64,000 nucleotides of DNA from a virus (lineage: Duplodnaviria; Heunggongvirae; Uroviricota; Caudoviricetes), in IMG/VR virus record IMGVR_UViG_3300001687_000020. The stretch is one strand, 5' to 3'. Shown here piece by piece: positions 18,152 to 36,773 of the stretch. The first letter of the stretch is position 1, and each line of letters starts with the position of its first letter. Below the pieces are notes generated by a model, which made no database searches, was not told the DNA's origin, and was given only the letters and a program-made list of their open reading frames with translations. Position numbers and translations under genes: made by a program.

Positions 18152-18245
18152 CTAAACCTCCAATTACATCAGAGAAATAAGTGAAAAATGTGCCCAGTAG
18201 ATTTTACTCTACCAGGCACATTAGTAACTATCTTAAAGGTTTTTT

Positions 18246-19319
18246 TCAAACCTTAATGTCTTTAGAGTCAATTTTCTCAGGTTCTTTCTCCTCTTCCTCT
18301 TCTTCCTCTTCCTCTTCTTCCTCTGCTTCTTTATCTAATTGCTCCATAAAAGCTTCAAAACTTTCTTCTAAAGCCTTTTTTTCACTTTCAGTCAAAGACT
18401 CAGATAACTCTTTGTCAACATCCAATTCTTCTTCCTCTTCTTTTTCCTTCTTTTCTCCCTCTTTAGGGGTCTCTTCTTCCTTCTCTTCTTCTTCGCCTAT
18501 TTCTTCTTCCATTTCCTTGATTAAAGAGGCCAATTCTTTTCGAACGATCTCTGCCTCATTCATTGTCCCTGCTTCTTCCTCAGGAACTTCTTCATCGCCC
18601 TCGATATTATCCTTAATTTCATCCAATTCAGGTTTAGGTTTTTGCTCTGCTTCGGGTGTTTCCTTGGTCTTCTCAGGCGTACTTTCTTCTTTATCCGCTG
18701 CCTGGGGCACTTCTGCTTCTTGCTCTTTAATAAATCGCTTTAAAGATTCTTCCAAAGTACCTGCCTCGGTATCTTCGGTTTGCTCTTCATCGGCGATCAT
18801 ATCTTCGATTTCGTCCAAATCACCTTCGCCACCAGCATCATCATATTTTTCCTCAGTGGCGACTTTTTCTACATCTCCTCCATCTTCATCGCCTTCTTGA
18901 TCCATCTCTTTGATAAGTCTCTTAAGAACGGAACTTTCTGAATCATTAAGAGATTCTTTAACTTCCTGTTCTTTTTCTGCTTTTTCTACTTCTTTTTCAC
19001 TCTCTTTCTTTGCTTCCTTGGAACCTGCCGGAGGGGGTTCCCCCTTTGTGGCACCAACGGTTTCCTCGGGTTCACCCTCTTGCCTTTTCATATCACCCAT
19101 TCCGGGTTCCGCGTTATCACCATTCTCAGTCAAGGAAAACATGTCTGCTGTTTTCTCATTGAAATAATATCTCTCGAGAACACCAGCAGCATCTTTATGG
19201 GTAGTCAATTCATCATCTTCTTCCCCATTAAAATTGACAATATCATCTACCATATCATTCAACTTATAGGTATTCGCTACGGACTCTTTAAGAATTTCAG
19301 GATATCCCTTCTTAGACAT
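18246..19319 (-). CDS. highly acidic low-complexity protein (Glu runs)
   Basis: 357 aa with E/K/D-rich low complexity, including a run of 15 Glu. The Ser-rich + strand ORF 18181..18900 is its antisense shadow. Confidence 0.6.
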   Translation of the reverse strand: MSKKGYPEILKESVANTYKLNDMVDDIVNFNGEEDDELTTHKDAAGVLERYYFNEKTADMFSLTENGDNAEPGMGDMKRQEGEPEETVGATKGEPPPAGSKEAKKESEKEVEKAEKEQEVKESLNDSESSVLKRLIKEMDQEGDEDGGDVEKVATEEKYDDAGGEGDLDEIEDMIADEEQTEDTEAGTLEESLKRFIKEQEAEVPQAADKEESTPEKTKETPEAEQKPKPELDEIKDNIEGDEEVPEEEAGTMNEAEIVRKELASLIKEMEEEIGEEEEKEEETPKEGEKKEKEEEEELDVDKELSESLTESEKKALEESFEAFMEQLDKEAEEEEEEEEEEEEKEPEKIDSKDIKV

Positions 19320-19441: not shown

Positions 19442-20983
19442 TCAGAAATTAGCTTCAAAATCGTTAGGTCTAACATTTGCCATATCAGTTCTGCTTCCTG
19501 GCTCAGGTGTATATGGAGGATCATTATTATTATCATCATATCTATCATCAAAAGTAATAAGTCCCTCCCCCTCGGGATTTCCTGATATCGGAGTATTTCC
19601 TGGAGGACGATGAGAAGGCCATATTCTATATCTACTTAAGTCTGCTTCAAATGAAACACTTCTTCTTGGACCATTCCTATTTTTTCCTACATTAAAAGAA
19701 ATTCTTCCATCATCTGAGGGACCAAGTAAAGCAACAAAGTCAACATGCTCTACTTTTTTCATTGCCTCTCCAACACTAGTCAACTCAGGGGCTTCGTTAT
19801 TATAACCTGACCTATTAACTTGAGTAACTGTAATCACAGGAATATCGTAATCAATAGATAAAATTTTCATATCTAAAGCAATCTTTGCTAATTGTAATCT
19901 ATATAAATCAGTAGAGAATTTTGCATCAAATAAATCTAAATAATCAACTAATAGTGCCTTTATTTTCTTCTTTCCATAACGAGAAGAAATGTCATCTAAA
20001 AGTATTCTTACATCTTCAGTTCCGATTGAATAAGCAGGAAAATAATACATACAAATATTATTCCTACTTTTTTCTATAACATCTTTGACCGCTTCTCTGA
20101 CGTTTGTTCCATTATTTATATCATTAACTATTTGAGTTTCAGTCCTATTAAATAAACAACAATATAGTCTAGCAAATGTTTCATCAATAAGATTCTCTAA
20201 AGTTACATATACATAAACTCCTTCGATATCATCCGAAGATGAAATTCTTGATCTTTTACATACGTTTGCTAAGAAATTTATTAAAAAAGTAGATTTACCA
20301 CATCCTGAGTGCCCCGCAATTAAGTAAACTCGACATTTTCTAAATCCACCCCTTAATATATCTCCATCTAAATTTTCAAAACCAGAAGGAACACAATTCT
20401 CCGCTTTATTATTTTCTTTTATTCGGTCTAATACATATTCGTATGAATCAGTCATTAAGTCAAGAGAAGCAGAAACTTCAACTACTGCTGCTCTATTTTC
20501 TTGCATCATATTAGCATATAAACTTTTTACGGCTCCCTCATATTCACCTACTAAATCATCGCAACTTTCAAATCTTGACTCTTCAACTGAAGAAACTAAA
20601 TCTTTCAGTTTATTAAAGTCTTTAAATAAAGCAATTTCTTTCTTTCGATTTCTAATCTGTTTGGTATAGTCAGAAGTAAGAGATGAGTCAATATGTTTTC
20701 CCAATTTATCTTCTATATAATCTTTTAAACCATCAAATTTTCCTCCTGCTAAGATACTATCAATTATAGAGGGAATTGACCTATTCTCCATCTTTAAAGT
20801 GCAAACTTTATAAAGGCAATCAAATTTATTCTTTATCTGGATAGGAATATCTTGATTATAAAGTTCCAAGTGATAGTCCAATATATCTAAAATATTCCTT
20901 ACTAAGGATGGGTCTCTATGAATGATAGTGTCTTTTGCTAATAATAAAGAAAAACAAACATCTAAGAAAGATTCTGTAATCAT
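19442..20983 (-). CDS. DnaB-like (SF4/RecA-fold) replicative helicase
   Basis: Walker A GHSGCGKST. LLVDYLDLFDA matches the DnaB H4 motif (vIDYLQLm). An N-terminal domain of about 200 aa precedes the ATPase. Confidence 0.75.
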   Translation of the reverse strand: MITESFLDVCFSLLLAKDTIIHRDPSLVRNILDILDYHLELYNQDIPIQIKNKFDCLYKVCTLKMENRSIPSIIDSILAGGKFDGLKDYIEDKLGKHIDSSLTSDYTKQIRNRKKEIALFKDFNKLKDLVSSVEESRFESCDDLVGEYEGAVKSLYANMMQENRAAVVEVSASLDLMTDSYEYVLDRIKENNKAENCVPSGFENLDGDILRGGFRKCRVYLIAGHSGCGKSTFLINFLANVCKRSRISSSDDIEGVYVYVTLENLIDETFARLYCCLFNRTETQIVNDINNGTNVREAVKDVIEKSRNNICMYYFPAYSIGTEDVRILLDDISSRYGKKKIKALLVDYLDLFDAKFSTDLYRLQLAKIALDMKILSIDYDIPVITVTQVNRSGYNNEAPELTSVGEAMKKVEHVDFVALLGPSDDGRISFNVGKNRNGPRRSVSFEADLSRYRIWPSHRPPGNTPISGNPEGEGLITFDDRYDDNNNDPPYTPEPGSRTDMANVRPNDFEANF

Positions 20984-20992
20984 TTAAATCTC

Positions 20993-21424
20993 CTATGAGG
21001 CTAATATTTGACAAATCAAATGCTTTAGGTCATATACTATCTTTACGTCAGGTCTAACTAGTCTAGTTTGAATTTCTACATCTACTCTTCTTTCGTAATC
21101 TGGATCCATTCCGATAAATATTAATTTTTTAGTCATTGACCAAGTTCCCAATTCATATAATACTATTGGACATAAAGTTTCTTTTGGGAACCAGAATGAT
21201 ATTCTTTCTGCTAACCTTAAAAATTTATGTTCCCATTCTATTTGTTTCACCGCTTCACCTTTGATACCTATTGGAAAATTCTCTCTTCTTGGATTAAAAA
21301 CAGTTATATTCTTACCATCTAATGCTTTAACTACTTCTTTTTGCCAATCTGGACAATTAGTTATTCCCCCTGCTAAAAATATACTATTCTTTATAATATT
21401 ATTAGGTGCTTCAATATAATTCAT
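20993..21424 (-). CDS. nucleoside 2-deoxyribosyltransferase-like / DNPH1-like protein
   Basis: SIFLAGGITNCPDWQ resembles the NDT/Rcl FLAGP motif. VLYELGTW resembles the catalytic Glu motif. Confidence 0.6.
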   Translation of the reverse strand: MNYIEAPNNIIKNSIFLAGGITNCPDWQKEVVKALDGKNITVFNPRRENFPIGIKGEAVKQIEWEHKFLRLAERISFWFPKETLCPIVLYELGTWSMTKKLIFIGMDPDYERRVDVEIQTRLVRPDVKIVYDLKHLICQILAS

Positions 21425-21615
21425 TTCATTCGCCTTTCTATTATTATAGTATTATTATACATTCGTGAAGTAGCATCTAATGATAGCATACAATTTCTAA
21501 ACTCTTCAAATTTCATGTAATATGTATACTTAAAAGCACTTAAATATATATAGTATTCTTTTTCGATGTTAGAAAGCCAATAATTTGGAAGAGGCATGAA
21601 GTTCTCTAAATTCAT
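21421..21615 (-). CDS. small hypothetical protein
   Basis: 64-aa ORF. It overlaps the dpdA-like start by 47 nt and may be spurious. Confidence 0.25.
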   Translation of the reverse strand: MNLENFMPLPNYWLSNIEKEYYIYLSAFKYTYYMKFEEFRNCMLSLDATSRMYNNTIIIERRMK

Positions 21616-22966
21616 CTTTCGATAAGGTTTTCTTTATCAAATATTCACAATGTTCCAAATCTAATTCATTTAACATATTCAACGAATTATATACACTATA
21701 AGATTTCGTAGTTTGCTTTCTAGTAAGTTTTCCTTGATTCAAATTTCTTACTGTTCCTTCGACTAGTGTATCAAATTCTTCATAATCACCATCAAGATAA
21801 AATTCATAGGCTTTATTAGCAATGGATTTGCATAGAGTTTCCACTCTCTTAAACATCCATAGCATATAAAGCATTGAGTAAACACTTACTTCTCTAAAGA
21901 AACTATTGGTTTCTCTATTGTATATAATATCTTTAGTCAATGGTTTGAAGTTAAATTCATTACATAATAAAGTTATCTCATTTTTATATTTCTCAATTCT
22001 AGAGATATCACCTTTCCATCTTAAATGTAATCCTTGTTCTCTTAAATCTAGTTTTCTAGAGATATCACCTTCTAAAACATTTAAATACCTTGCTTGCATG
22101 AGTCCTTTAAAAAGACCTGACGAATCATAAGTAATAGTAACTTTAATGTCATGTTTTTCTACAATATGCTTTTTTATTAGTTCATAGAAAAATATGTCTC
22201 TAAAGTTTGATCCTCCTAAAATGTGGAAATCGAACTCTTTTATGCCTTTTTCCTTTGCTTTTATGAGAATAGGCATTAAAGGAATGATATAAATAATACA
22301 AGGAATTAAAACATCAGAAGCCATATTTGCTACAATCCCACCAGTAGCAAAGTGCCTAAAACTTTCAAACATTCCATCATAATTTAATAAATCATTAAAT
22401 ATTCTCCATAACTTTGGAGTTCTAAAGTGATTAATATAAATAATCTTATCTCTTGCTTCTTGAGGTAAATTCTTAGCTAATTCATAAGATTTTAAATTAT
22501 AGTCATAAATATCTTTAAAACTATTGAAAATTGTACATCCAGGACCTGGAACTATATCTAAAATGAAAGCCCTATCGAAACAGTCTTCTTGTTTTATGAA
22601 ACCATAATATAAATCTAATAATATATCAGTCTGCTCTTTATCCAATTTGCCTATAGAAATCTGAAATCCGCCCGAGTCCACATAAAATAAACTGGAATCA
22701 AAAAATCCTGTATCTCTACATTTTCTTAACATCTTAGCAACATTTACGTTATGTCGCTCATATTTTCTCATTTTATAAAAATTTTGACCATAGGAGTGAA
22801 GAAATCTATTACAGGTTTTAGAAAAGAAATTACTTATGTCTGACTTGGTGAAATTACTGCTAAATTCTTCACTATTCATAAAAGTTTCGATAATAGTGGC
22901 TAAAGTCTCAAACCCCGCCACAGTGAATCCTGCTGCCTCATTCATTTCGTTATTCCCTCTTTTCAA
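21569..22966 (-). CDS. dpdA: DpdA-like DNA/tRNA-guanine transglycosylase
   Basis: FYVDSGGFQ matches the TGT catalytic DSGGFQ motif. HILGGSNF lies downstream in the barrel. Confidence 0.8.
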   Translation of the reverse strand: MKRGNNEMNEAAGFTVAGFETLATIIETFMNSEEFSSNFTKSDISNFFSKTCNRFLHSYGQNFYKMRKYERHNVNVAKMLRKCRDTGFFDSSLFYVDSGGFQISIGKLDKEQTDILLDLYYGFIKQEDCFDRAFILDIVPGPGCTIFNSFKDIYDYNLKSYELAKNLPQEARDKIIYINHFRTPKLWRIFNDLLNYDGMFESFRHFATGGIVANMASDVLIPCIIYIIPLMPILIKAKEKGIKEFDFHILGGSNFRDIFFYELIKKHIVEKHDIKVTITYDSSGLFKGLMQARYLNVLEGDISRKLDLREQGLHLRWKGDISRIEKYKNEITLLCNEFNFKPLTKDIIYNRETNSFFREVSVYSMLYMLWMFKRVETLCKSIANKAYEFYLDGDYEEFDTLVEGTVRNLNQGKLTRKQTTKSYSVYNSLNMLNELDLEHCEYLIKKTLSKDEFRELHASSKLLAF

Positions 22967-23354
22967 GTTTAATTATTTTCTCTTTATATGCCTCTAAAGT
23001 AATGGATAAAAAATGAGCATAATTAGCTGTGTCGATAGCATTGTCCAACGCCATCTCCATACTCTTATTATCCATTAATAGGTTATTAGTAATTATGTTC
23101 AATACTCTCCGGATCTTAACATGAGCCAACACAGCGTTCAAAGTTGGTGCTAGAGAAGGGAATTCAGGAAGTCTCCAAGTATCCGTTCCGTATTCTGCGT
23201 TTCTCTCAACGAATATTCCATATGCTTTACATACTGATTCAAACATAACTCTGGCTTCTTTTTTATCAAAATTCTTACTATTAAATGAACACTCACTTAT
23301 AGCCTCTTGGTTATCTTCGTCAAATAATACCAACTTAATATTTTTAGAATCCAT
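22950..23354 (-). CDS. hypothetical protein
   Basis: 134-aa ORF. Confidence 0.45.
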   Translation of the reverse strand: MDSKNIKLVLFDEDNQEAISECSFNSKNFDKKEARVMFESVCKAYGIFVERNAEYGTDTWRLPEFPSLAPTLNAVLAHVKIRRVLNIITNNLLMDNKSMEMALDNAIDTANYAHFLSITLEAYKEKIIKLEKRE

Positions 23355-23698
23355 TAATTATCCTCCTCTTTTTTATACCATCCATATTCATTCATTAACT
23401 CTTTAGAAACTAAATGTAAGTCTAATACACAAGGAATTACAATAACATGACAATCAAGTATCTTATTAAGTTCATTTTTTAACCTGATACTTTCCTCATA
23501 TGTTAACATATCATTTGGACATTTAATTACTAAAACGTCGTCTTTTTTAACACTAGATTTCTTTATTACTTGATCCTTGTTATTTAAAGCCATAGATTTT
23601 TTAATTTGAATTATCAGTATACTACCCAACACAGCTATTAGAATTATAAGAATAATTAAGAAAAAAATAATTAAATCATTGTAAATCGTATATGCCAT
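23354..23698 (-). CDS. single-pass membrane protein
   Basis: N-terminal TM helix LIIFFLIILIILIAVLGSILII. Confidence 0.45.
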   Translation of the reverse strand: MAYTIYNDLIIFFLIILIILIAVLGSILIIQIKKSMALNNKDQVIKKSSVKKDDVLVIKCPNDMLTYEESIRLKNELNKILDCHVIVIPCVLDLHLVSKELMNEYGWYKKEEDN

Positions 23699-23710
23699 AT
23701 ATTCTCTCCT

Positions 23711-24844
23711 TTAATAGAATCTCTCATTTGGCTCTCTTTCTAATAAAGATATTATAGGGAGACCATGAGTATCGTTCGCTAAAAACTTAATACATAAAAC
23801 ATATAAAAGTTCTGAATTACATTCTTTGATATTATCACTAATACTTTTTAAACAATTATTCTCACATATTATATCCCCTACTACAGCAACTTTTTTACTA
23901 ACTATATAGTTACTTATTAAAACCTTACTATAACAACGTTCTTCTCCAAATAGACTTGGTGCTAAACGTATACAATATTTACTTCCAAAATATACATTTG
24001 CCAATATAGTACATATAGGCATACATCTATTATTTAAACATATGATAACATCAGGGCATTCTCCATCAAAATTATGACCCAATGCTTTTCTAGCCAAATT
24101 AGTAGTAATCTCAGAGCACAATTCCAAATCAACTAAATAATTTTCAATTTCATAGCTAGTACAATTTCTAAATCTCTCCATAGGAATTTCCTCATCTATT
24201 GACTTTTGCTTAGATTTATTTGTATAAATTTTGCTTAAATTATCTTCAACTTGCAATTCATTCCAAATGAAACTATCAACAGCTAATAGTGTTGAATCTT
24301 CAAAATCCCTATTCTTCAGTTCTTTAGAAATTTCTTTGGCAATATTACATAAATATTTATAGACTTTTCCAGTAACTTGATAATCATATTTTGGTAATTT
24401 GGTCGCTTCTAAATAATTAAAACCTACATAGGCTCTCCTATTCCATATCATAAAATCATTTGGATGGCTCTTACATAAAATTTCACTTATCATTGCGGGA
24501 CCCATTCCTTTAATTTGGGTTCGGAAAGAATCCCATCTATAAATAATATCTTGTTCTCCCCAAACTAACTCTGTCAAATGTTTTTTAAAATTTTGTAAAC
24601 CATTATCCCCAATAATCTTATCAATTACATAGTGTTTATTCCTCCATATTAACATTGCCCATAATTTTGATAGATATTCATAGATATCTTCTTCATTCAT
24701 AGAAAAGATTTTATCCTTTGAAAACTGTTGATAGTAATTTACTAGGTCAGCTCGTTCTTCAAAGTCTTTGGAAAATTTTTCATAACCTTTTTTGGAATTT
24801 GAAATAAAATTTTGAGTATGTTTTTTTAGTAGTTCTGTATTCAT
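23711..24844 (-). CDS. hypothetical protein with degenerate type-I PRTase-like C-terminal region
   Basis: KKVAVVGDIICENNCL resembles a PRPP-binding strand-loop (vllVDDvitTG), but the TGxT is replaced. This call is weak. Confidence 0.4.
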   Translation of the reverse strand: MNTELLKKHTQNFISNSKKGYEKFSKDFEERADLVNYYQQFSKDKIFSMNEEDIYEYLSKLWAMLIWRNKHYVIDKIIGDNGLQNFKKHLTELVWGEQDIIYRWDSFRTQIKGMGPAMISEILCKSHPNDFMIWNRRAYVGFNYLEATKLPKYDYQVTGKVYKYLCNIAKEISKELKNRDFEDSTLLAVDSFIWNELQVEDNLSKIYTNKSKQKSIDEEIPMERFRNCTSYEIENYLVDLELCSEITTNLARKALGHNFDGECPDVIICLNNRCMPICTILANVYFGSKYCIRLAPSLFGEERCYSKVLISNYIVSKKVAVVGDIICENNCLKSISDNIKECNSELLYVLCIKFLANDTHGLPIISLLEREPNERFY

Positions 24845-24848
24845 GATT

Positions 24849-25619
24849 CTATATTCTCCTTTCTTTTACTTTAATCCAAGGATATGTCTCAGATGGATTT
24901 ATATCGTCAAAGATGATAGGAATTTTCTTTTTAAGATATCCAAGTAAAGGTATAGTAATTTCTCTCAACTGTGGATGACATTTGGGGGTAGTTCTGAGTT
25001 GGAGAAAGTATCTTAATTCTCTCATATTCATGGTTATAACTAACTCTGTTTTCAATGAGTTTGGAAGAACTGCTCTTGCTTGTTGAGCCAAAAAACCTAA
25101 GTCTATAAGATTCATGTATTCTATTTCCGCTTTAGTACATGAAGCATACCATCTATTAATTCCTTTATAATTTTTTACATTTTCGTTTTGTTCATATCTT
25201 CCACCTTCTACCATAACTTTCAAAATCTCATAATTAGAACTAAATTTTTGTTTTTTAGTATCATAAAGGTCTCTAAACCAAAGAGGAAGTATAACTGTTA
25301 TTTCATTCCCGAATTTATCTTTGGCATAGCAGCAATACCTAGTACTAGATTGTGAGTAGGATGCTAATCTGTGACGGACTATTTCGTGTGTTACACCTCG
25401 ATCACATACTACTTTAAAAGTTAACTTTTCATGTTCTATTAGAGATAAATGACCCAAAGAAATAGCTTTCTTTATAAATTCTTTACTTGAGTTTGAAGTT
25501 ATCTTATCTTCACTTTTATAACAAGTCCTTCCAGCAAACTCTAATTTCTTTAGAATTTCATCTCCATTAATTTTATCTAATATTTCAATTTTCGGACTTA
25601 TTATTTTCATTTTTTCCAT
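24849..25619 (-). CDS. thyX: flavin-dependent thymidylate synthase ThyX
   Basis: VRHRLASYSQSSTRY matches the RHRx7S ThyX signature. Confidence 0.9.
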   Translation of the reverse strand: MEKMKIISPKIEILDKINGDEILKKLEFAGRTCYKSEDKITSNSSKEFIKKAISLGHLSLIEHEKLTFKVVCDRGVTHEIVRHRLASYSQSSTRYCCYAKDKFGNEITVILPLWFRDLYDTKKQKFSSNYEILKVMVEGGRYEQNENVKNYKGINRWYASCTKAEIEYMNLIDLGFLAQQARAVLPNSLKTELVITMNMRELRYFLQLRTTPKCHPQLREITIPLLGYLKKKIPIIFDDINPSETYPWIKVKERRI

Positions 25620-25833
25620 TCTCCTTTACTAAAGATTCAAATTTCTCTACTTTTCTCCTGACTACATTTCCTAAAACTTCTTCGATTGTAGTTCCTTCAC
25701 AACTACATACATACTCTAGTTTTAAGCGATCAATATAACTAGTAGGAACCAAAACTCCAAAAACTGCTTTCCTAGTATATTCATTCCTTAAAGATATATC
25801 TATTTCGTTAAGTATTATCTCTTTACTTCTCAT
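25585..25833 (-). CDS. hypothetical protein
   Basis: 82-aa ORF between queE and thyX. Confidence 0.4.
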   Translation of the reverse strand: MRSKEIILNEIDISLRNEYTRKAVFGVLVPTSYIDRLKLEYVCSCEGTTIEEVLGNVVRRKVEKFESLVKENGKNENNKSEN

Positions 25834-25834
25834 A

Positions 25835-26491
25835 CTATATAAACCCGTAAATTAAATGAATACGTGAAGAAAAGTTAAACTTATATTTTTCTGTCATATC
25901 AAAGACTTCAGGAGAATTTCTAATTAATGTTTCTCGGTCAATCCCCTCAGGCATTAGATAAACTTTATTATTAATATCTAAATTACTCAAAAATCCCAAG
26001 TAGTGTCTAATAAGATCATTATTTTCAAATACTATCTTTATATACAAGTTTTTAATATCTCTTAGTTTTTTAGTTACATCCATTTCTTTAAGTAAATCAT
26101 TTTCATTAAAGATTTTAGGAGAATATATGTATTTAACTTTCTTATCAGGGGTAACTTGATTAATTAAATCAATTAAATGATAACCATTACTTTCAACATT
26201 TGCTAGAGGATAATTTAAATAATTGAGTAGTTTTAGTGAATCATCTATATGCTTTTGAAAAGTAGGTTCGCCTCCAGTAATTAATAAACCCAACTTTTGC
26301 TCATTTATTATATCTTGCAAAGGTCCTAAAGAAAATTCTGCTTCCTGCTGAATACGCATTTTCACTAATGTGTCACACCAAGGGCAAGACTTATTACAAT
26401 ACTTAAATCTAAATAAAAGCATTCTTTTTCCCATATCGGGTCCTTCTCCTTGCAAAGTCGATGTACATTCAATCCCTTTAACTGTGTCCAT
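25835..26491 (-). CDS. queE: 7-carboxy-7-deazaguanine synthase QueE (radical SAM)
   Basis: CNKSCPWCDT cysteine cluster and the LITGGEPTF glycine-rich SAM motif. Confidence 0.85.
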   Translation of the reverse strand: MDTVKGIECTSTLQGEGPDMGKRMLLFRFKYCNKSCPWCDTLVKMRIQQEAEFSLGPLQDIINEQKLGLLITGGEPTFQKHIDDSLKLLNYLNYPLANVESNGYHLIDLINQVTPDKKVKYIYSPKIFNENDLLKEMDVTKKLRDIKNLYIKIVFENNDLIRHYLGFLSNLDINNKVYLMPEGIDRETLIRNSPEVFDMTEKYKFNFSSRIHLIYGFI

Positions 26492-26594: not shown

Positions 26595-27512
26595 TTATTC
26601 ATCATCCCATGTGTATTCTTGAGTTTTCGTTGAAGTCAATGGTTCGGTCAACTGAGTATAACGATCTATCCAAGAAAATTTAACCATTGCCTTTATATCA
26701 GGAATAAACCATTTTGGTAAATTCGATTCATTCTCAGGGATTGAAATAGTTTCTAATTTTCGGTTTTTAGTTTCAAAATTCTTATAATACTTTTCTACTA
26801 CATCTTTGGGAGCTATGTCTTTATCCAATCCTAATAATTTAAATAAATATCCCTTAGTTCCAGGTAAGAAATAATTATACATTAAATCATTCCAATTTAA
26901 CATAGATACCACATTTTGAGGTATCTTTTTATATTCGGTTAATTTTTTACCAAAACTTGAAGGTCTAGCAACCTCCTTATCACCTGCTTTAATTTTCTGA
27001 ATGAACTCTTTTTCTTTTACATCAATAAAATCCAATATTTCTACTATAGATATACTATCTGAGGAAAGCATCATATCCAAAAGAACTTTTAGATACTGTT
27101 TAGTTAAGGCGGGGTAATCACTTCTTTGAGTTTCTATTCCTACGATTTTAATTTCATTTACTAACTTTTCTTCTCTCTTTACGATGTTTAAAGCATAATG
27201 TTTTTTAGAAATAAAAACTCCTCTTTTACAAACCAATTCGTTCTTTAATCTTAACTTATTTACATCTACATTCACTTGGTGTTTTTTTACTACACCTAAT
27301 ACTATCTTATTATTTAAAAAATTTTCTATTCCTCCACATATTTTACCTACTTCATTTAAATCTTCCTTGTCTACAAAGTCCTGAAGTACTACAAAAATAG
27401 AATCGGTATCACTGGTTATTATATATTTAGTATAATCTTTTAACCCTCCATAAACATTACTTAATTCTTCTATATCACCATACATAGCATCCTTCGACAA
27501 AATATTACCCAT
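26595..27512 (-). CDS. family-B DNA polymerase, C-terminal piece (motif C + KKRY palm/thumb)
   Basis: TSDTDSIFV is motif C (YGDTDS). ISKKHYAL is the KKRY motif. Confidence 0.85.
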   Translation of the reverse strand: MGNILSKDAMYGDIEELSNVYGGLKDYTKYIITSDTDSIFVVLQDFVDKEDLNEVGKICGGIENFLNNKIVLGVVKKHQVNVDVNKLRLKNELVCKRGVFISKKHYALNIVKREEKLVNEIKIVGIETQRSDYPALTKQYLKVLLDMMLSSDSISIVEILDFIDVKEKEFIQKIKAGDKEVARPSSFGKKLTEYKKIPQNVVSMLNWNDLMYNYFLPGTKGYLFKLLGLDKDIAPKDVVEKYYKNFETKNRKLETISIPENESNLPKWFIPDIKAMVKFSWIDRYTQLTEPLTSTKTQEYTWDDE

Positions 27513-27679: not shown

Positions 27680-28348
27680 ATGATTAGCAAAACAATTACT
27701 GAGAAGGTCTCTGAAAACCTAGGTATAGGAAAGAAGAAGGAAAAGGAGAAGAAGAAGTCCGAAAAGAAGAATGGTAAAAATAGTCAAGAAAAGAAAGTCA
27801 CTTTTTTTGAATCTCTTAACTCCCAGATAACTGCTTTTGATAAATTCATAAGAGATACAGGAAAAACATTAAAGAAGTCTAAAGTCGCTTTTTGGATTTC
27901 TTCGATGGCTATAACTTCATTGATTTTCCTGGTATTTCCAACTGTTTTTACTAAAGTAGTTGGGATTTGCTTATTGATAGGTATAGCTTTAATTCTTACC
28001 ATTCAATTCTTTCAGGATCAACCTTGGTTTGAAAAAGCGCTACTAACTGAGATTTCACTCATAACCTTCCTGGTTGTCTTCTATGTCTATTTTCTTCTAT
28101 TTTGGATAGTACCCATTGGAATTCTTTTAGTTACATTATTAGTAACTTGTTTTACTGCTGTTTTCTTAACTTATAAAGGAATACTTTTATTAGGAAAGGA
28201 GAAACAAAAAACGAAAGAACCAGGAAAAGATGGAAATTTTGAGGCCAGAAGGTCTGAGGATGGTAAGCTTTCAGTAGACCATAAAGCTCCTCAAAGAGAA
28301 CCCACTGGGAAAAAGGTTCCTGATGATTATTGGAATTTACCTGAATAA
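27680..28348 (+). CDS. polytopic membrane protein with K/E-rich N-terminus
   Basis: Four or five TM segments. Lies on the opposite strand between the two polB pieces. Confidence 0.5.
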   Translation: MISKTITEKVSENLGIGKKKEKEKKKSEKKNGKNSQEKKVTFFESLNSQITAFDKFIRDTGKTLKKSKVAFWISSMAITSLIFLVFPTVFTKVVGICLLIGIALILTIQFFQDQPWFEKALLTEISLITFLVVFYVYFLLFWIVPIGILLVTLLVTCFTAVFLTYKGILLLGKEKQKTKEPGKDGNFEARRSEDGKLSVDHKAPQREPTGKKVPDDYWNLPE

Positions 28349-28440
28349 TTTAACTCTCGGTGGGTTACTTGGTTTTAAATAATCAAGTAACTCACCGTTA
28401 TTTGATTTTCTTTAATTTTTTATATAAGGAGATAGGAAAA

Positions 28441-28950
28441 ATGTTTGGAAAAAAAATATTTGCTGTTTTCTGTGTTTTTATTTTAGTTTGTTTGATTTTT
28501 TCTTTTCCTGGGTATTGCCAGGACATTTCATTTCCACAATCTGAAATCCAAAGGTATTATGAAAGGACTATACGAGAGGGATTACTCGAGAAGTTATCTA
28601 AACCTATGGGCCCAAAAGATCCTTCCAAAAATGTGGATGGGATGGCTGTTTCTTATTTCTCCAGCATGGGGAAAGAAATAGTTGGAATTTTGGGTGATCT
28701 TAAAAAGATCGAAATGATCTATAATAACAAAGAACTCGATGATGGGAAGAAAATTAAAGAGACCAAAAAGATATTGGAAAAAATGGACTCTTCAATTTCT
28801 TCTCTGATGTTCGACTATCTTGGAGTAGCCAACTATATAGTCTACACCGGATGGGAAAATCTCAGCGAGGACGAGAAATTCGTGGTCAATCCAGAAAAAT
28901 ACCTTTTTGATATGCTCTTGGACGTTTCAGAAGGGAATAGTCCAAAATGA
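28441..28950 (+). CDS. secreted protein
   Basis: Signal peptide MFGKKIFAVFCVFILVCLIFSFPGYCQ. SD TAAGGAGATAGG. The MFGK start was chosen over 28360. Confidence 0.5.
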   Translation: MFGKKIFAVFCVFILVCLIFSFPGYCQDISFPQSEIQRYYERTIREGLLEKLSKPMGPKDPSKNVDGMAVSYFSSMGKEIVGILGDLKKIEMIYNNKELDDGKKIKETKKILEKMDSSISSLMFDYLGVANYIVYTGWENLSEDEKFVVNPEKYLFDMLLDVSEGNSPK

Positions 28951-29324
28951 AAAGCTTATCGGGAATAACCATAGGTATTCTCATTCTTGCTATCATTCTC
29001 TCACTTTTTAATATAAGTTTTGCGATAGGTTTATTTACCTTATCCATGGTGATGTTATTCATCAGTTATAAAAGTGAGAGTCTACGATTTGGTATTTTTT
29101 GCTACGGAATATGTATCCTAATTTTTGAGATCTTCTTTACTCTCATTAATTGGATATTGTTTCAGGCAGGGTTAGCTGTTTTTTGCCTTGTAATTTCGAT
29201 CATATTTGGAATTCTAATGGGGTTCATATATTATCTTTTAGGTATGGTTCCCGCTAAGAAATTCCATATTTCAGTTGATCGATATGGCAAAATTATTGGC
29301 GCTATAAAACTCACGAAATACTGA
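28947..29324 (+). CDS. membrane protein (4 TM)
   Basis: Four TM helices. ATGA overlap with the previous gene. Confidence 0.5.
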   Translation: MKSLSGITIGILILAIILSLFNISFAIGLFTLSMVMLFISYKSESLRFGIFCYGICILIFEIFFTLINWILFQAGLAVFCLVISIIFGILMGFIYYLLGMVPAKKFHISVDRYGKIIGAIKLTKY

Positions 29325-29445: not shown

Positions 29446-31773
29446 TCAATTTTTAGAAAAATTACTCATATAATTTTCTGCTTCTAAAATACAAGTTTTA
29501 GTAATCTCTTGACCTGATAAAGTAACTGATGAGGCTAAATCGGGGCAAAAGAATCTAAAATGTGAGTTTGCTAAAACTCCATAAAAAGAGTTTGCTAAAA
29601 TTTTATAAGCCCATTGCTTCATATCATATTCTGTTTCTATCGTTTTATTTTCAGCTTTAAACATTTTCTTTTTATAAATATCTCGCGTTTCCATAAGTTC
29701 TTTTAAAATATCTGAGAAAAAAGAACTCTCCTCTTCATGACTTTTATAAAAGCAACCATTTATAGTGACTACTAATTTTTCATTTTTAAATTTAGCAATT
29801 AAATCTTCCTTTTTCATAATAACTAATTCATTCTTTTCTAATGGATCTAATATCACTTCTACCTTATCAGGAAAACTATCTATATTATAAATAAAATCAT
29901 AACCATTAGTAAAATCTTTAAACTTCATAACGAAAGTGTTAAAACCTATATTATAAGTAATAATTAAACTTGGATACAGACTTTTAAAATCAAAATCCAC
30001 TATCCAATCATGTATACCTAAATTAGGTTCTTTTACATATCCTCCAGGTATACTACTATTATCACCACTAGAAACAAAATTCCTCGGAGACATACCTTTC
30101 TTTTTAAGATAGCATAAAACATAATTATCAATCTGACCAATAGTTGAAAAACTTGATCTAAAAGTTGTGCTACATAAAAGCCTTAATTCATTAAGTAATG
30201 AAATATAGTGTCTTTTTCTTTCTAATTCATCTAACAACTCAACGTCCGTTCTATTATACTCAACAAATTTATCAATATCATTTCTATATAAATCAGTTAT
30301 AGTTCCATCATACCTGACTTTAGTATGTTCTAATTCCTCTTGAGCAATAAAGTCCAAGGTATAACTTTCTTTTCTTGATTGAGAAAATGTCTTATATAAA
30401 TTACACATGTCTATACATATTTTTCCTGCTATATGTAAATAATTTCTAGAAGTATCAAACTCCAATTCTCCATATTTAGATAAAATCTTATTTGATATTC
30501 CTAACTTTGGGCATCTATTATAGATATATAACAAGTCAAATCCTAGATTCCACCCAGCAATAATATCAGGGTCAATATTAACTAAATCATTAACCAATTT
30601 GGAAACCAACTCTTTTTCTGTTTTAACAAATATTCTATCTTCAGAAATAGTTGGTTTATTTTTAACCAAACTTGATGCTATACTATAACTTATAGTCTTT
30701 CCATGGTATCTATATGATATTGAATTTATAGGTCTTTTTGCCTCTTCTGGTCTTGGAAACTCCATAGTTTCACCCAAGTCAACTTCAATATCAACAAAGA
30801 ATATATTCAAATTTTTAGTTGGAGCTTCTTCTTTATTTAATAAATAATAATCGACGGCATACTTATTATCTATTCTTATATCGCCCTCATAATGGTTATT
30901 AGCATTTAAAGAATACTTATTTTTATATTCTAATCTCATAGTTTTAAGATTATCATAATTTTCAACTAGTTTAGATGATCTGTTTGAAGATTCATAGCAA
31001 TAGTACTGAGCATTTTCTTCGTGGTATACTTTTTTATTATCTTTATCTCTAAAAATAAATATTATTTTAGAATTATTCTTTATCGATTGAATATCAACTA
31101 ATCTATACTCGTTGGTATAAAATTTATCAGGAATAGTTATAAAAACTGGGGCCTTTTCTTTTGATTCTTTAATTCCCGAAGTTATTTCCATTTTCTTCTC
31201 AGCATTTCCTGTTACATATTTATATGCTTCAAATAAGTCTTTAGTAAAATTCTCTTTCATCTCAGGATTAGGTCTTCTGGCTAAATATGATGGATGAATA
31301 GTTACTAAAATCTTATAGTTTTCCCATTCAAAATAGTTTCCTCTGATCTTAGTTATACCACCACTTATACCAAAAGCACTACATGCACTAGCCCCCATTA
31401 AAACAATAAGTTTTGGATTACATTTTCGTATGATATCGAAACAATTTAATTTACATCTTTCTATAACTTCTTTACTTGGATTTCCTGTAGTTCCATCAGG
31501 ATTAATAGTTTGACAAAGAACCACATTAGTCAATAAATATTTAACTTTATTCTTGAAAAAATAAAAGTTAAAACCTGATTTCCTAAATACCTGTCCAGAT
31601 TTTCCTATTAGAGGGACTTCCTTATCTACTTCATCTTTACCAGGATTTTCAGCAATAAAGATCACTTCTACATCATCTAAATATTTACAATTAGTTTCTA
31701 GTATACAACTTGGGCAACTTTCTAATGGGCACCCTTCGCAATCAGTTAATGTCGATGAAATTATTTTAAACAT
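29446..31773 (-). CDS. family-B DNA polymerase, N-terminal piece (UDG4-like domain + 3'-5' exo + motifs A/B)
   Basis: N-terminal FIAENPGKDEVDKEVPLIGKSGQVF resembles family-4 UDG (GEAPG...PFvG.aG). FFVDIEVD is Exo I. DFDFKSLYPSLII is motif A. KILANSFYGVL is motif B. The ORF ends before motif C. Confidence 0.85.
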   Translation of the reverse strand: MFKIISSTLTDCEGCPLESCPSCILETNCKYLDDVEVIFIAENPGKDEVDKEVPLIGKSGQVFRKSGFNFYFFKNKVKYLLTNVVLCQTINPDGTTGNPSKEVIERCKLNCFDIIRKCNPKLIVLMGASACSAFGISGGITKIRGNYFEWENYKILVTIHPSYLARRPNPEMKENFTKDLFEAYKYVTGNAEKKMEITSGIKESKEKAPVFITIPDKFYTNEYRLVDIQSIKNNSKIIFIFRDKDNKKVYHEENAQYYCYESSNRSSKLVENYDNLKTMRLEYKNKYSLNANNHYEGDIRIDNKYAVDYYLLNKEEAPTKNLNIFFVDIEVDLGETMEFPRPEEAKRPINSISYRYHGKTISYSIASSLVKNKPTISEDRIFVKTEKELVSKLVNDLVNIDPDIIAGWNLGFDLLYIYNRCPKLGISNKILSKYGELEFDTSRNYLHIAGKICIDMCNLYKTFSQSRKESYTLDFIAQEELEHTKVRYDGTITDLYRNDIDKFVEYNRTDVELLDELERKRHYISLLNELRLLCSTTFRSSFSTIGQIDNYVLCYLKKKGMSPRNFVSSGDNSSIPGGYVKEPNLGIHDWIVDFDFKSLYPSLIITYNIGFNTFVMKFKDFTNGYDFIYNIDSFPDKVEVILDPLEKNELVIMKKEDLIAKFKNEKLVVTINGCFYKSHEEESSFFSDILKELMETRDIYKKKMFKAENKTIETEYDMKQWAYKILANSFYGVLANSHFRFFCPDLASSVTLSGQEITKTCILEAENYMSNFSKN

Positions 31774-31977
31774 ATTCTCTCCTATTTTTATAATTTTAAA
31801 TTTATATTATGTTCTAACTCTTTAAGAAACATCTATTTGGATAAAACCAATTAGAATATATATATTAATTACTGGTATTTAAGAAAGTGGTTGTTGCTTA
31901 GAAAATTATATTTTTTAAATGTATCTTTTTTCTCTCTCAATAGAAGGATACATTTACATTGTAGGAGGTGTATTGTC

Positions 31978-32355
31978 ATGCAAAGACCACAAAGAGATTG
32001 TTTTTTGTGTCACCAAAGACTGGAACGGAGAGTAGACTATGAGTTAAGGAAAAGGATATTCGAAACTTTATTTCACCGATGCCCCGCTTGTGGCAATGAA
32101 ATTCCTCAAAAGGATTGGGACATCCCTAGATGGAGGTTTAAAGTTTACATATATATACTTAACCAATTTATAAAGGCAGGAGATTACTTTTTGGGTTTTA
32201 ATAAATTCAGGATTAACGATTCAAGAGGTAGTAATTATAAGTCTCAAACTCATAAAGAAGCATTTCATAATAATAGCAAATTCAACCACAATACCGAGCC
32301 AGTAGGTAGTTATCAAAAATCTAACAGTTCTAAAAGAACTAGAAATATGTCATAG
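31978..32355 (+). CDS. zinc-finger protein
   Basis: CFLCHQ...CPACGN Cys pairs. SD GTAGGAGGTG. A start at 31978 was chosen over 31891. Confidence 0.45.
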   Translation: MQRPQRDCFLCHQRLERRVDYELRKRIFETLFHRCPACGNEIPQKDWDIPRWRFKVYIYILNQFIKAGDYFLGFNKFRINDSRGSNYKSQTHKEAFHNNSKFNHNTEPVGSYQKSNSSKRTRNMS

Positions 32356-32387
32356 AAAGGGGGTAAAACATAAGAAAAAAGTTAGGT

Positions 32388-32420
32388 GGGGTTTGGAGAA
32401 AAGAAATCTCTCCAAACCCT
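32388..32420 (+). terminator. hairpin terminator
   Basis: GGGTTTGGAGA ... TCTCCAAACCC, an 11-bp stem. Confidence 0.5.
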
Positions 32421-32475
32421 TTTTCACCAAGTAACAATTTATTCTTTTTTCAAAAAAGGGAAGGAGTATAGGTTA

Positions 32476-33273
32476 ATGAGGTTAGAGTTTTTAATCATTG
32501 ATTTCCAAAATGATTTTTGTCTTCCTGATGGTGCTCTTCCAGTTCCTGGAGCAATGGATGATGCTGATCGTTTAGCTGAAACTATATTAAGGTTAAAAGA
32601 CAAAATTTCTATGATTCATGCAACTTTGGATACTCATCATTTTGTTGACATTTCCCACCCTATTTGGTACATTGACGCAGAAGGGAATCATCCCGAGCCT
32701 ATTACTACAGTAATGACGGCAAAGGCTTTAAAAAGCGGAATATGGACCACTACAAATCCCCTTTCTTTACAAAGAACTATTGAATATGAGGAAAAACTGG
32801 AGAAAAATGGACGATATCCTCATGTTATTTGGCCACCACATTGTCTCATCGGAGAGAGTGGGATGAATGTGGTTGAACCAGTCAGAAGAGCATTTCGTGT
32901 TTGGGAAATTACGAAATGTAGAAGTATAAACTATGTAACCAAAGGCAGTAATCCTTGGACTGAACATTACTCAGGAGTAATAGCAGATGTCCCGGATGAT
33001 GAGGATGAAACCACTCAATTAAATACCCCCCTAATTGAAACTTTAGCCAGAGCCGACATAATTGGTTTTTCTGGACAAGCATTAAACTTTTGTGTAGCAA
33101 ACACGGGGAAAGACGTAGCTGATAAAATCGGGGAAGACAATATTAAGAAAATAACTCTTCTTGAGGATACTTGCTCAAATGTCCCCGGTTATGAAAATCT
33201 AGCAACTGAATTTCTGAAGTATATGAAAGACAAAGGTATGAAAACTTGTAAAAGTTACGAATTTTTGGCCTAA
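32476..33273 (+). CDS. pncA: nicotinamidase/pyrazinamidase (isochorismatase family)
   Basis: LIIDFQNDFCLPDGAL matches the PncA/isochorismatase motif (lvvDvQnDFcpgGal). The ATG at 32476 has SD AAGGAG. The longer ORF from 32386 would overlap the terminator hairpin. Confidence 0.8.
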   Translation: MRLEFLIIDFQNDFCLPDGALPVPGAMDDADRLAETILRLKDKISMIHATLDTHHFVDISHPIWYIDAEGNHPEPITTVMTAKALKSGIWTTTNPLSLQRTIEYEEKLEKNGRYPHVIWPPHCLIGESGMNVVEPVRRAFRVWEITKCRSINYVTKGSNPWTEHYSGVIADVPDDEDETTQLNTPLIETLARADIIGFSGQALNFCVANTGKDVADKIGEDNIKKITLLEDTCSNVPGYENLATEFLKYMKDKGMKTCKSYEFLA

Positions 33274-33303
33274 ACTCGAGAACGGTTAAGGAGAGAAAAA
33301 ATT

Positions 33304-34053: not shown

Positions 34054-34117
34054 TTTTGCTATCTCATTAAATTTCTTCTGTATATTCTGGCCGAAATACT
34101 TAGGAATGTCTTGGGAT

Positions 34118-34168
34118 AGCTATAGGGGGGAGATTCTTTTAACCTTTCGATTGGGGATAAATTTTCTC
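34118..34168 (+). promoter_or_regulatory. hairpin between vWA and phosphatase genes
   Basis: GGGGGGAGA ... TCTCCCCCC, a 9-bp stem with a loop of about 30 nt. Confidence 0.35.
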
Positions 34169-34223
34169 CCCCCAATTTTCTACTTTTTTATTTAATCTTT
34201 ACTTGGGGGAGGCATAATAAGTT

Positions 34224-36772: not shown

Positions 36773-36773
36773 T

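What the first reader, a model, noticed from the sequence alone, without database searches (positions are those of the whole stretch)
20993..26491. 7-deazaguanine DNA-modification and thymidylate gene cluster (DpdA, QueE, ThyX, NDT-like)
The minus-strand run contains an NDT-like protein, a DpdA/TGT-like transglycosylase (DSGGFQ), several small proteins, ThyX (RHRx7S) and QueE (CxxxCxxC radical SAM). This is the signature of phage DNA modification with 7-deazaguanine derivatives: QueE makes CDG, QueC makes preQ0, and DpdA inserts it into DNA. FolE, QueD and any amidotransferase or QueF homolog were not found here, so the final base (dPreQ0, dADG or another) cannot be deduced. The NDT-like and PRTase-like neighbours could extend the pathway in a new direction.
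Basis: partly seen in the sequence, partly recalled or inferred. Interest (0 to 1): 0.65.

Follow-up and report, generated by a model that had tools for sequence, protein, structure and literature searches.

The report
Unrecognised DpdA-type DNA-guanine transglycosylase with QueE
An uncultivated T4-like phage carries, inside its DNA-replication genes, enzymes that make a 7-deazaguanine base (QueE, QueC) plus a previously unannotated 458-residue relative of the DpdA enzymes that swap guanine in DNA for such bases, so the phage probably chemically disguises its DNA.

The parts
21569..22945 (-). DpdA-like DNA-guanine transglycosylase of a new subfamily (458 aa). The ATG at 22945 follows an AGAGGGA Shine-Dalgarno sequence. 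The TTG at 22966 listed by the ORF tool is probably not the start.
25835..26491 (-). QueE-like radical-SAM enzyme (7-carboxy-7-deazaguanine synthase), 218 aa.
   Evidence: phrog_2076 3.7e-27. TIGR03963 QueE 8.6e-14, below the equivalog cut-off. HMM of six phage QueE proteins 1.1e-29. tblastn hits 221 phage QueE genes. QGEG and CxxxCxxC are visible in the sequence.
42524..43336 (-). Divergent QueC (PP-loop ATPase, preQ0 synthase type), 270 aa. It lies outside the reported interval.
   Evidence: PF06508 8e-7, above the cut-off. phrog_1550 4e-17. hhalign against canonical phage QueC gives Prob 97.7%, E 2e-12. The SGGIDS PP-loop, the PxRN motif and four Zn cysteines are retained.
42028..42531 (-). 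Conserved 167-aa protein of unknown function. Its start overlaps the QueC stop. Membership of the system is not shown.
   Evidence: Homologues occur in 33 of 46 related loci upstream of PolB, and next to QueC wherever a QueC-like gene is present. No Pfam, PHROG or PDB match.
23711..24844 (-). 377-aa fusion protein. Residues 1-205 form an Ogg2-like HhH DNA-glycosylase fold.
24849..25619 (-). ThyX flavin-dependent thymidylate synthase. General nucleotide metabolism, not part of the deazaguanine pathway.
   Evidence: PF02511 1.2e-41 and TIGR02170 6.9e-36, both above cut-off. Replaced by ThyA or absent in most related loci.
20993..21424 (-). NDT/DNPH1-like N-glycosidase-fold protein (143 aa). An accessory gene with no demonstrated link to the system.
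   Evidence: PF15891 7.2e-19. No homologue in any of 46 related loci. Homologues occur in Lak, Caulobacter, Sinorhizobium and other jumbo phages.
22950..23354 (-). 134-aa protein of unknown function.
   Evidence: phrog_1485, unknown function, 4e-6. One homologue, located just upstream of QueC in L045. No similarity to the MazG-like proteins of phiST or S0112.
23354..23698 (-). 114-aa protein with a hydrophobic N-terminal segment; unknown function.
   Evidence: Sequence. No significant family hit.
25585..25833 (-). 82-aa ORF between QueE and ThyX; unknown function.
   Evidence: No family hit. No homologue in related loci.
21421..21615 (-). 64-aa ORF; unknown function.
   Evidence: No hits.
26595..27512 (-). 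C-terminal part of a split family-B DNA polymerase. It is the flanking replication gene immediately upstream of QueE.
   Evidence: phrog_262 3.8e-21 and divDNApol. Homologous to the C-terminal part of the ~1080-aa unsplit PolB in 39 loci.
29446..31773 (-). N-terminal part of the split PolB, with a fused UDG-superfamily domain.
   Evidence: PF00136 3.5e-29 and PF03167 9.3e-16.
19442..20983 (-). DnaB-like replicative helicase, the flanking replication gene downstream.
   Evidence: PF03796 2.4e-18. Conserved downstream of the DpdA-like gene in 41-42 loci.

Best explanation
The interval is the central part of the replication and nucleotide-metabolism module of an uncultivated T4-like phage. The phage has gp23-type capsid, gp20-type portal and prohead protease genes next door. 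The module carries a 7-deazaguanine DNA-modification system.

Proposed mechanism:
- QueE converts CPH4 into 7-carboxy-7-deazaguanine (CDG). CPH4 presumably comes from host FolE/QueD, or from phage genes outside the roughly 83 kb examined.
- The divergent QueC at 42.5-43.3 kb converts CDG, via the amide, into preQ0.
- The 458-aa DpdA-like TIM-barrel enzyme exchanges guanine in phage DNA for this base after replication, by the TGT double-displacement mechanism. D274 acts as nucleophile and D90 as general acid/base. D130 and H173 read the base edge, and the G202-G203 loop accommodates the 7-substituent. The helix, beta-hairpin and helical bundle that follow D274 probably hold the DNA, as Ins8 does in bacterial DpdA.
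- The expected benefit is protection of the phage DNA from restriction and other DNA-targeting defences.

Shown here: gene identities, fold, conserved residues and gene linkage.
Inferred: DNA as the substrate, the identity of the base, the source of CPH4 and the protective role.

ThyX, the NDT-like gene and the small ORFs are neighbours in the same module, not demonstrated parts of the system.
For: Fold and active site:
- hhalign against phage DpdA1/2 gives 93.4%. It aligns D90/D72, D130/D114, H173/H141, GG202-203/GG162-163, H241-G244/H196-G199 and D274SS/D215SS.
- These residues are invariant or at least 90% conserved across 80 members down to about 20% identity.
- They correspond to D95, D130, H181, G206/G207 and D256 of Salmonella DpdA, where D95A and D256A abolish activity (PMC10164549).
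- Sub-threshold HMM matches place DSGG(F/Y)Q on D102 and the GG loop on G229/G230 of Z. mobilis TGT.
- The secondary structure after D274 (two-turn helix, beta-hairpin, helical bundle) parallels DpdA Ins8 as described in PMC10164549.

Gene linkage:
- QueE lies within 10 kb in 41 of 46 loci.
- QueE is directly adjacent in the distant L057. QueT, QueE and the DpdA-like gene occur together in the distant L058.
- QueC-like genes occur in L001, L045 and L046, and a canonical QueC in L031.

QueE and QueC identities.

Other points:
- The module sits between PolB and DnaB, as do the DpdA genes of phages 9g and S0112 next to their polymerases.
- No tRNA gene is present in the window.
- According to PMC10516641, a DpdA-family protein is encoded in all phages known to carry 7-deazaguanines.
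Against: - No sequence model of TGT or DpdA recognises the protein or any of 80 relatives. Foldseek against the PDB gave only generic TIM barrels.
- The structural Zn site (CXCX2CX22H) conserved in TGTs and bacterial DpdA is absent. No Cys is conserved.
- FolE and QueD were not found in the window, in about 19 kb of extensions, or near any relative, so precursor supply is assumed.
- The QueE-DpdA linkage comes largely from one syntenic phage lineage, so the 41/46 count is not 41 independent events.
- There are no chemical data. DNA rather than tRNA as the substrate is inferred from context and from resemblance to DpdA.
Confidence: 0.7

Rival explanations
1. The TGT-like enzyme modifies tRNA (a queuosine or archaeosine-type modification of host or phage tRNAs). 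QueE and QueC would then be auxiliary metabolic genes that boost the host queuosine-precursor supply for translation.
Against: The family lacks the TGT Zn subdomain and has no PUA or other RNA-binding domain. No tRNA genes are present in the window. The gene is fixed between PolB and DnaB in the replication module. The closest profile match is to phage DpdAs, of which the 9g enzyme inserts deazaguanine into DNA (PMC6884629, PMC10516641). The post-nucleophile helix, hairpin and helical bundle resemble DpdA Ins8.
Confidence: 0.1
2. The QueC-like and TGT-like pair works as Cap9/Cap10 of type IV CBASS or QatC do. It would attach a deazaguanine derivative to a protein or small molecule, for example as a phage counter-defence, and would not modify DNA.
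Against: Most relatives have no QueC-like gene nearby (3 of 46) but do have QueE, which Cap9/Cap10 and Qat systems do not need. PADLOC finds nothing for the TGT-like protein. The QueC-like protein matches canonical QueC better: Pfam above cut-off and hhalign 97.7%. DpdA and the TGTs score higher than Cap10.
Confidence: 0.05
3. The modification is pre-replicative. The NDT-like and/or PRTase-like proteins would convert the free 7-deazaguanine base into a deoxynucleoside or nucleotide that the phage PolB incorporates. The TGT-like protein would be accessory.
For: The NDT-like gene is adjacent and has the N-glycosidase fold family (PF15891 7e-19). An ADG nucleoside was reported in Campylobacter cells infected with CP220 (quoted in PMC10516641).
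Against: NDT-like homologues are absent from all 46 related loci that keep QueE and the DpdA-like gene. They occur in jumbo phages (Lak, Caulobacter and others) where no link to this chemistry was seen. The PRTase assignment of the 377-aa protein fails: no Pfam hit for the domain, AF2 pLDDT below 50. No deoxynucleoside or nucleotide kinase was identified in the interval. PMC10516641 argues that all known cases are post-replicative.
Confidence: 0.05
4. The TGT-like protein is a catalytically different TIM-barrel enzyme of the replication module (for example a DNA glycosylase or base-excision enzyme without base insertion). Its proximity to QueE would be synteny without functional coupling.
For: No established family model recognises it. 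The linkage is partly phylogenetic inertia within one lineage.
Against: The complete TGT catalytic constellation is invariant over a family diverged to about 20% identity. Linkage to QueE persists in relatives of about 20-25% identity with rearranged neighbourhoods, and QueT joins it there.
Confidence: 0.08

Closest known systems
Bacterial DpdA (Salmonella Montevideo, PDB 7UI4), the DNA preQ0 insertase of the Dpd system
   Different: About 10% identity and no profile-level sequence match. There is no CXCX2CX22H Zn site. No DpdB ATPase partner was identified nearby. The setting is a phage replication module, not a bacterial restriction-modification island.
Phage DpdA1/DpdA2 (Enterobacteria phage 9g gp03; Rosebush, Sour, Finch and S0112 homologues)
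   Same: Profile-profile match of 93.4% over the catalytic core, with all motifs collinear. Also phage-encoded, next to replication genes and to QueE/QueC. The five phage DpdAs likewise have no invariant Cys cluster.
   Different: Ours is 458 aa against 305-385 aa, with extra N- and C-terminal helical regions. It is undetectable by tblastn or phmmer. The known phages carry FolE, QueD, QueE and QueC together as one cassette. Here only QueE is constant, and FolE and QueD are absent.
DpdA3 (Cellulophaga phage phiST CGPG_00065; Campylobacter phages)
   Same: The gene complement is analogous: QueE present, QueC usually absent, and a very divergent DpdA found only by sensitive methods. DpdA3 phages replace all G (PMC10516641).
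   Different: No detectable similarity: hhalign Prob 0.05-3%. DpdA3 is about 260 aa with LDNGAGD instead of DSGGFQ. DpdA3 phages encode FolE and QueD. The control comparison of DpdA3 against DpdA1/2 was also negative with these small profiles, so this shows distinctness, not unrelatedness.
tRNA-guanine transglycosylases (bacterial TGT, QTRT1/2, archaeal TGT)
   Same: Same fold and catalytic motifs, with DSGG(F/Y)Q identical to the bacterial TGT motif.
   Different: No Zn subdomain, no PUA or C-terminal RNA-binding domains, and no Pfam PF01702 match in any of 80 members.

Membership tests
TGT/DpdA superfamily (TIM-barrel base-exchange transglycosylases) | TIM-barrel fold closest to TGT/DpdA structures | tested here: met
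   [not shown]
TGT/DpdA superfamily (TIM-barrel base-exchange transglycosylases) | General acid/base Asp (Sm DpdA D95, Zm TGT D102) in a DSGG-type motif | tested here: met
   D90 in DSGGFQ is invariant in 80 members. It aligns with D72 of 9g DpdA and with D102 of Zm TGT.
TGT/DpdA superfamily (TIM-barrel base-exchange transglycosylases) | Nucleophile Asp (Sm DpdA D256, Zm TGT D280) | tested here: met
   D274 (DSS) is invariant in 80 members. It aligns with the invariant D215-S-S of phage DpdAs.
TGT/DpdA superfamily (TIM-barrel base-exchange transglycosylases) | Base-recognition Asp and His, and the Gly-Gly loop after beta-6 (Sm D130, H181, G206/G207) | tested here: met
   D130, H173, G202 and G203 are at least 90% conserved. 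They align with D114, H141 and G162/G163 of 9g DpdA.
TGT/DpdA superfamily (TIM-barrel base-exchange transglycosylases) | Structural Zn site CXCX2CX22H | tested here: not met
   No such motif in the sequence, and no conserved Cys in A2. The feature is described in PMC10164549.
TGT/DpdA superfamily (TIM-barrel base-exchange transglycosylases) | Recognition by curated sequence models (Pfam PF01702/DUF6610, NCBIfam, PADLOC DpdA) | tested here: not met
   No hit for the protein or for any of 80 family members. Only phrog_887 at E 4e-4.
TGT/DpdA superfamily (TIM-barrel base-exchange transglycosylases) | Guanine/7-deazaguanine exchange activity on DNA | not testable with these tools
   Needs biochemistry or nucleoside mass spectrometry.
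Phage DpdA1/DpdA2 | Sequence similarity to validated phage DpdAs | tested here: inconclusive
   Profile-profile Prob 93.4%, E 2.6e-7 over 173 columns. There is no tblastn or phmmer match to any deposited phage. It is a separate clade, not a member.
DpdA3 | Similarity to phiST CGPG_00065 and its homologues | tested here: not met
   hhalign Prob 0.05%, 2.4% and 3.2%.
QueE (7-carboxy-7-deazaguanine synthase) | Radical-SAM Cys cluster, QGEG substrate motif and full-length similarity to QueE | tested here: met
   CxxxCxxC and QGEG are visible. phrog_2076 3.7e-27. Phage QueE HMM 1.1e-29. NCBIfam QueE models are the best hits but fall below the equivalog cut-offs.
QueC (7-cyano-7-deazaguanine synthase) | PP-loop SGGxDS, four Zn cysteines and profile match | tested here: met
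   PF06508 29.2 bits against a cut-off of 22. phrog_1550 4e-17. hhalign 97.7% with the motifs aligned. Whether it releases preQ0 or stops at the amide cannot be tested here.
Complete preQ0 pathway (FolE, QueD, QueE, QueC) | FolE and QueD present | tested here: not met
   phmmer and HMM searches of six-frame translations of the window, about 19 kb of extensions and 49 related loci found no hit with E below 0.05. Pfam on the remaining ORFs found none. The rest of the genome was not available.
ThyX | Pfam/TIGRFAM above cut-off and the RHRx7S motif | tested here: met
Nucleoside 2-deoxyribosyltransferase-like (PF15891) | Profile match above cut-off | tested here: met
   68.5 bits against a cut-off of 30. 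A Glu in an ELG context (LYELGTW) was seen by eye, and the comparison with NDT/DNPH1 is from memory. Activity is untested.
Type I phosphoribosyltransferase (C-terminal half of the 377-aa protein) | PRTase profile match / PRPP-binding loop | tested here: not met
   NCBIfam 13-14 bits against cut-offs of 115-143. No Pfam hit for the domain alone or for its 154-aa homologue. The AF2 model is unreliable in this half.
HhH-GPD/Ogg2-like DNA glycosylases (N-terminal half of the 377-aa protein) | Fold match and profile match | tested here: inconclusive
   [not shown]

The most novel reading that the evidence does not exclude
The ~460-aa family is a fifth, so far undescribed DpdA clade. It is spread through a large environmental group of T4-like phages. 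In most of them it works with QueE alone: no QueC, FolE or QueD within 10 kb. It would therefore insert CDG, or a not-yet-described CDG-derived base, into DNA, possibly at high replacement levels as DpdA3 does.

In this phage the neighbouring 377-aa protein would be the captured modified-guanine-sensing (Ogg-like) domain of a bacterial defence protein with a different C-terminal domain. That bacterial C-terminus looks nuclease-like only by eye and was not tested. The phage would reuse the captured domain as a decoy or shield for the modified DNA.
Probability: 0.2. Interest if true: 0.8.

Novelty: new variant of a known kind. Interest (0 to 1): 0.6.

Why it matters
DpdA is treated as the signature gene for 7-deazaguanine DNA (PMC10516641). 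A clade that no Pfam, NCBIfam or PADLOC model detects, with only a weak PHROG match, means surveys that rely on those models would miss a whole lineage of modified phages. This clade has 341 clusters at 50% identity and is a core replication-module gene of large uncultivated T4-like phages. QueE is its one constant companion, without FolE, QueD or, usually, QueC. That raises the possibility of a different inserted base (CDG or a derivative) or of dependence on host precursors. The family also offers a Zn-less, structurally distinct DNA transglycosylase for enzymology and for DNA-labelling tools.

Tried and rejected
- Direct sequence searches with the 458-aa protein found nothing: Pfam, NCBIfam and PADLOC, phmmer and HMM against PDB sequences, and tblastn against 50,697 phages with three family members. 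blastn of the whole interval found no related phage.
- hhalign of the shallow alignment A1 against single DpdA sequences failed. It worked only with the diverse 80-member alignment against a 5-member DpdA profile.
- DpdA3 membership was rejected. The DpdA3 against DpdA1/2 control was also negative.
- FolE, QueD and DpdL were searched with single sequences and with HMMs, with no result.
- I considered the conserved 167-aa and 166-aa ORFs next to QueC as disguised QueD or FolE. They have no family or PDB match, so this is unsupported.
- I tested the 134-aa ORF for similarity to the MazG-like proteins of the phiST and S0112 clusters, with none found.
- Homologues of the C-terminal domain of the 377-aa protein could not be retrieved. 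AF2 could not model the domain, so its fold is unknown.
- The GTDB scan with the diverse alignment failed for lack of a conserved stretch. It was repeated with A1 and returned only four MAG contigs.
- Literature searches found no description of further DpdA subfamilies or of this family.

Full report
**Observation.**
The minus strand between 20993 and 26491 carries a tight run of ORFs. In order they are:
- a 143-aa NDT-like protein (PF15891, E 7e-19);
- a 64-aa ORF;
- a 458-aa ORF (ATG at 22945, preceded by AGAGGGA) containing DSGGFQ;
- ORFs of 134 and 114 aa;
- a 377-aa ORF;
- ThyX (PF02511 1e-41, TIGR02170 above cut-off, RHRx7S);
- an 82-aa ORF;
- a 218-aa QueE-like radical-SAM protein. It has QGEG plus CxxxCxxC. 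It scores phrog_2076 4e-27 and 1e-29 against an HMM of six phage QueE proteins, and tblastn finds 221 phage QueE genes.

The run is flanked by DnaB (19442-20983) and by a split family-B DNA polymerase with an N-terminal UDG domain (26595-27512 and 29446-31773). Gp23-type capsid, gp20-type portal and prohead protease genes lie at 10-17 kb. The window is therefore part of an uncultivated T4-like phage. It has no nucleotide-level relative among deposited phages.

**Is the 'DpdA' real?**
By sequence alone it is almost invisible. There is no Pfam, NCBIfam or PADLOC hit, nothing in PDB sequences and nothing in 50,697 phage records. The only match is a weak PHROG hit to 'queuine tRNA-ribosyltransferase' (4e-4).

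In an alignment of 80 members diverged to about 20% identity, D90, H241, L243, G244 and D274 are invariant. S91, G93, Q95, F127, D130, N150, H173, G202 and G203 are at least 90% conserved. A profile-profile comparison with five phage DpdAs (9g, Sour, S0112, Finch, Rosebush) gives 93.4% probability (E 2.6e-7) over 173 columns. It aligns each of these positions with an invariant DpdA residue.

These positions are the counterparts of D95, D130, H181, G206/G207 and D256 of Salmonella DpdA, where D95A and D256A abolish guanine exchange (PMC10164549).

There are three differences from known families:
- The structural Zn site of TGTs and bacterial DpdA is absent.
- The protein is longer than phage DpdAs (458 against 305-385 aa).
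- It shows no similarity to DpdA3 of phiST. The DpdA3 against DpdA1/2 control was equally negative with these small profiles.

After the nucleophile come a short helix, a beta-hairpin and a helical bundle. This is the same order of elements as the DNA-contacting Ins8 of bacterial DpdA.

**Context across relatives.**
I analysed 41 IMG/VR loci plus Logan and JGI loci with six-frame phmmer and HMM searches and ORF clustering.

The conserved order is: 167-aa ORF, UDG-PolB, QueE, variable small genes (S21, GroES, ThyA or ThyX), DpdA-like, DnaB, portal.
- QueE is within 10 kb in 41 of 46 loci.
- A QueC-like gene is present in only three loci (L001, L045, L046), and a canonical QueC in L031.
- FolE and QueD are found in none, nor in the window or in about 19 kb of contig extensions.

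Two much more distant members (about 20-25% identity) keep the association:
- L057 has an intein-containing QueE directly upstream.
- L058 has QueT (PF06177, 7e-23), QueE and the DpdA-like gene together.

So three different 7-deazaguanine genes (QueE, QueC, QueT) associate with this family in different arrangements. That argues for functional coupling rather than mere synteny.

The family is absent from deposited phages. Among 185,579 GTDB species genomes it occurs on only four MAG contigs.

**The rest of the pathway in this phage.**
A divergent QueC lies at 42524-43336. It scores PF06508 above cut-off and phrog_1550 4e-17. hhalign against canonical phage QueC gives 97.7%, with the PP-loop, PxRN and four Zn cysteines aligned.

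In the nearest relative (L001) this QueC and the 167-aa ORF sit immediately upstream of PolB. In the window, a plus-strand island at 31.9-41.9 kb has been inserted between them.

Pfam scans of the remaining 56 ORFs show no QueF, GATase, ArcS, FolE or QueD. With QueE and QueC present, preQ0 (dPreQ0 in DNA) is the default prediction here. In the QueC-less majority of the lineage, CDG or a derivative is more likely. This echoes the QueC-less DpdA3 phages, which carry dDG or dADG (PMC10516641).

- NDT-like gene: no homologue in any of the 46 loci. In deposited phages it occurs in Lak, Caulobacter, Sinorhizobium and other jumbo phages. It is an accessory nucleotide-metabolism gene.
- ThyX: replaced by ThyA or absent in most relatives.
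- 'PRTase-like' 377-aa protein: it is a fusion.
  - This half is 67-79% identical to the N-terminus of a ~362-aa bacterial family that weakly matches Pfam 'OGG'.
  - Residues 207-377 could not be modelled and have no Pfam hit. They match only a 154-aa ORF that sits just upstream of the DpdA-like gene in L001.
  - The PRTase idea rests on NCBIfam E-values of 0.03-0.04 and is not supported.

**Mechanism proposed.**
Host- or phage-supplied CPH4 is converted by QueE to CDG, and by QueC to preQ0. The DpdA-like enzyme then exchanges G in replicated phage DNA for the deazaguanine. D274 forms a covalent intermediate and D90 provides acid/base catalysis. The result would be restriction-resistant DNA.

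Fold, residues and linkage are shown. The substrate (DNA), the base, the modification level and the protective role are inferred.

**Rivals.**
- tRNA modification is unlikely: there is no Zn or PUA domain, no tRNA gene, and the gene sits in the replication module.
- A Cap9/Cap10-like conjugation system is unlikely: most relatives lack QueC and keep QueE, and PADLOC finds nothing.
- A pre-replicative NDT or PRTase route is unlikely: neither gene is conserved.
- Coincidental synteny with a non-exchanging TIM-barrel enzyme is unlikely: the catalytic set is invariant and the linkage persists at deep divergence.

**Novelty.**
The kind of system is known. The transglycosylase is a distinct, unannotated clade with its own architecture and an unusual gene complement (QueE-centred, without FolE or QueD). 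It is widespread in environmental T4-like phages. I found no paper describing it. I rate it a new variant of a known kind, with interest 0.6.

Noticed in passing
window 26595-27512 (-), 27680-29324 (+), 29446-31773 (-); L001, L058: The family-B DNA polymerase, which has a fused N-terminal UDG domain, is split between motif B and motif C. Three opposite-strand membrane-protein ORFs lie between the halves. The same split occurs in L001. Most relatives have one ~1080-aa gene. In L058 the halves carry intein fragments and ThyX lies between them.
   Followed up: partly
[not shown]
   Followed up: partly
window 44418-44969 (-); about 11 related loci; L058 1-11: A macro-domain protein resembles the DarG antitoxin ADP-ribosyl glycohydrolase (NCBIfam 9e-11, PADLOC 2e-11). 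In about 11 relatives its homologue sits directly upstream of the DpdA-like gene. L058 has a NADAR gene instead. These are possible counter-defences against DNA ADP-ribosylation (DarT-type).
   Followed up: no
window 42028-42531 (-): A 167-aa ORF with a basic C-terminal tail is conserved in 33 of 46 related loci upstream of PolB. It overlaps the QueC stop codon wherever a QueC-like gene is present. It has no family or PDB match.
   Followed up: partly
L058 7496-7996 (+): A phage-encoded QueT (queuosine-precursor transporter, PF06177 7e-23) sits beside QueE and a distant member of the DpdA-like family. This suggests precursor salvage by some members of the lineage.
   Followed up: partly
window about 44.9-58.9 kb (-): An island of sugar-modification genes: SIS-domain protein, sulfotransferase, two GT2 glycosyltransferases, GT9 heptosyltransferase-like, UDP-GlcNAc 2-epimerase and GT-D-like. 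It also holds a sub-threshold UPRTase/PRTase-like ORF at 54352-54987 (E 4.8e-5). That ORF is a better PRTase candidate than the one in the finding.
   Followed up: no
window 31891-41941 (+): A plus-strand island separates QueC and the 167-aa ORF from PolB; the two blocks are adjacent in L001. Pfam hits to PP2C phosphatase, protein kinase, DMP19-like and SPFH/Band-7 came from a pooled scan of 56 window ORFs. Only DMP19-like was located (37548-38183). I assign PP2C and the kinase to 34224-36772 from the sequences by eye. The SPFH ORF was not located and may lie outside the island.
   Followed up: no
window 50887-51240 (-): A small ORF with an RF-1/GGQ domain (Pfam 2.7e-19, ArfB-like peptidyl-tRNA hydrolase type). 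It was assigned to this ORF from the GGQ motif in its sequence.
   Followed up: no
L001 7794-9521; L057 4726-5868: Inteins interrupt ThyX in the closest relative and QueE in a distant relative.
   Followed up: no
window 18181-19319: A Glu/Asp-rich 357-aa ORF on the minus strand has homologues in many related loci. It is mirrored by a Ser-rich 239-aa antisense ORF on the plus strand, which is almost certainly an artefact of the low-complexity sequence.
   Followed up: no
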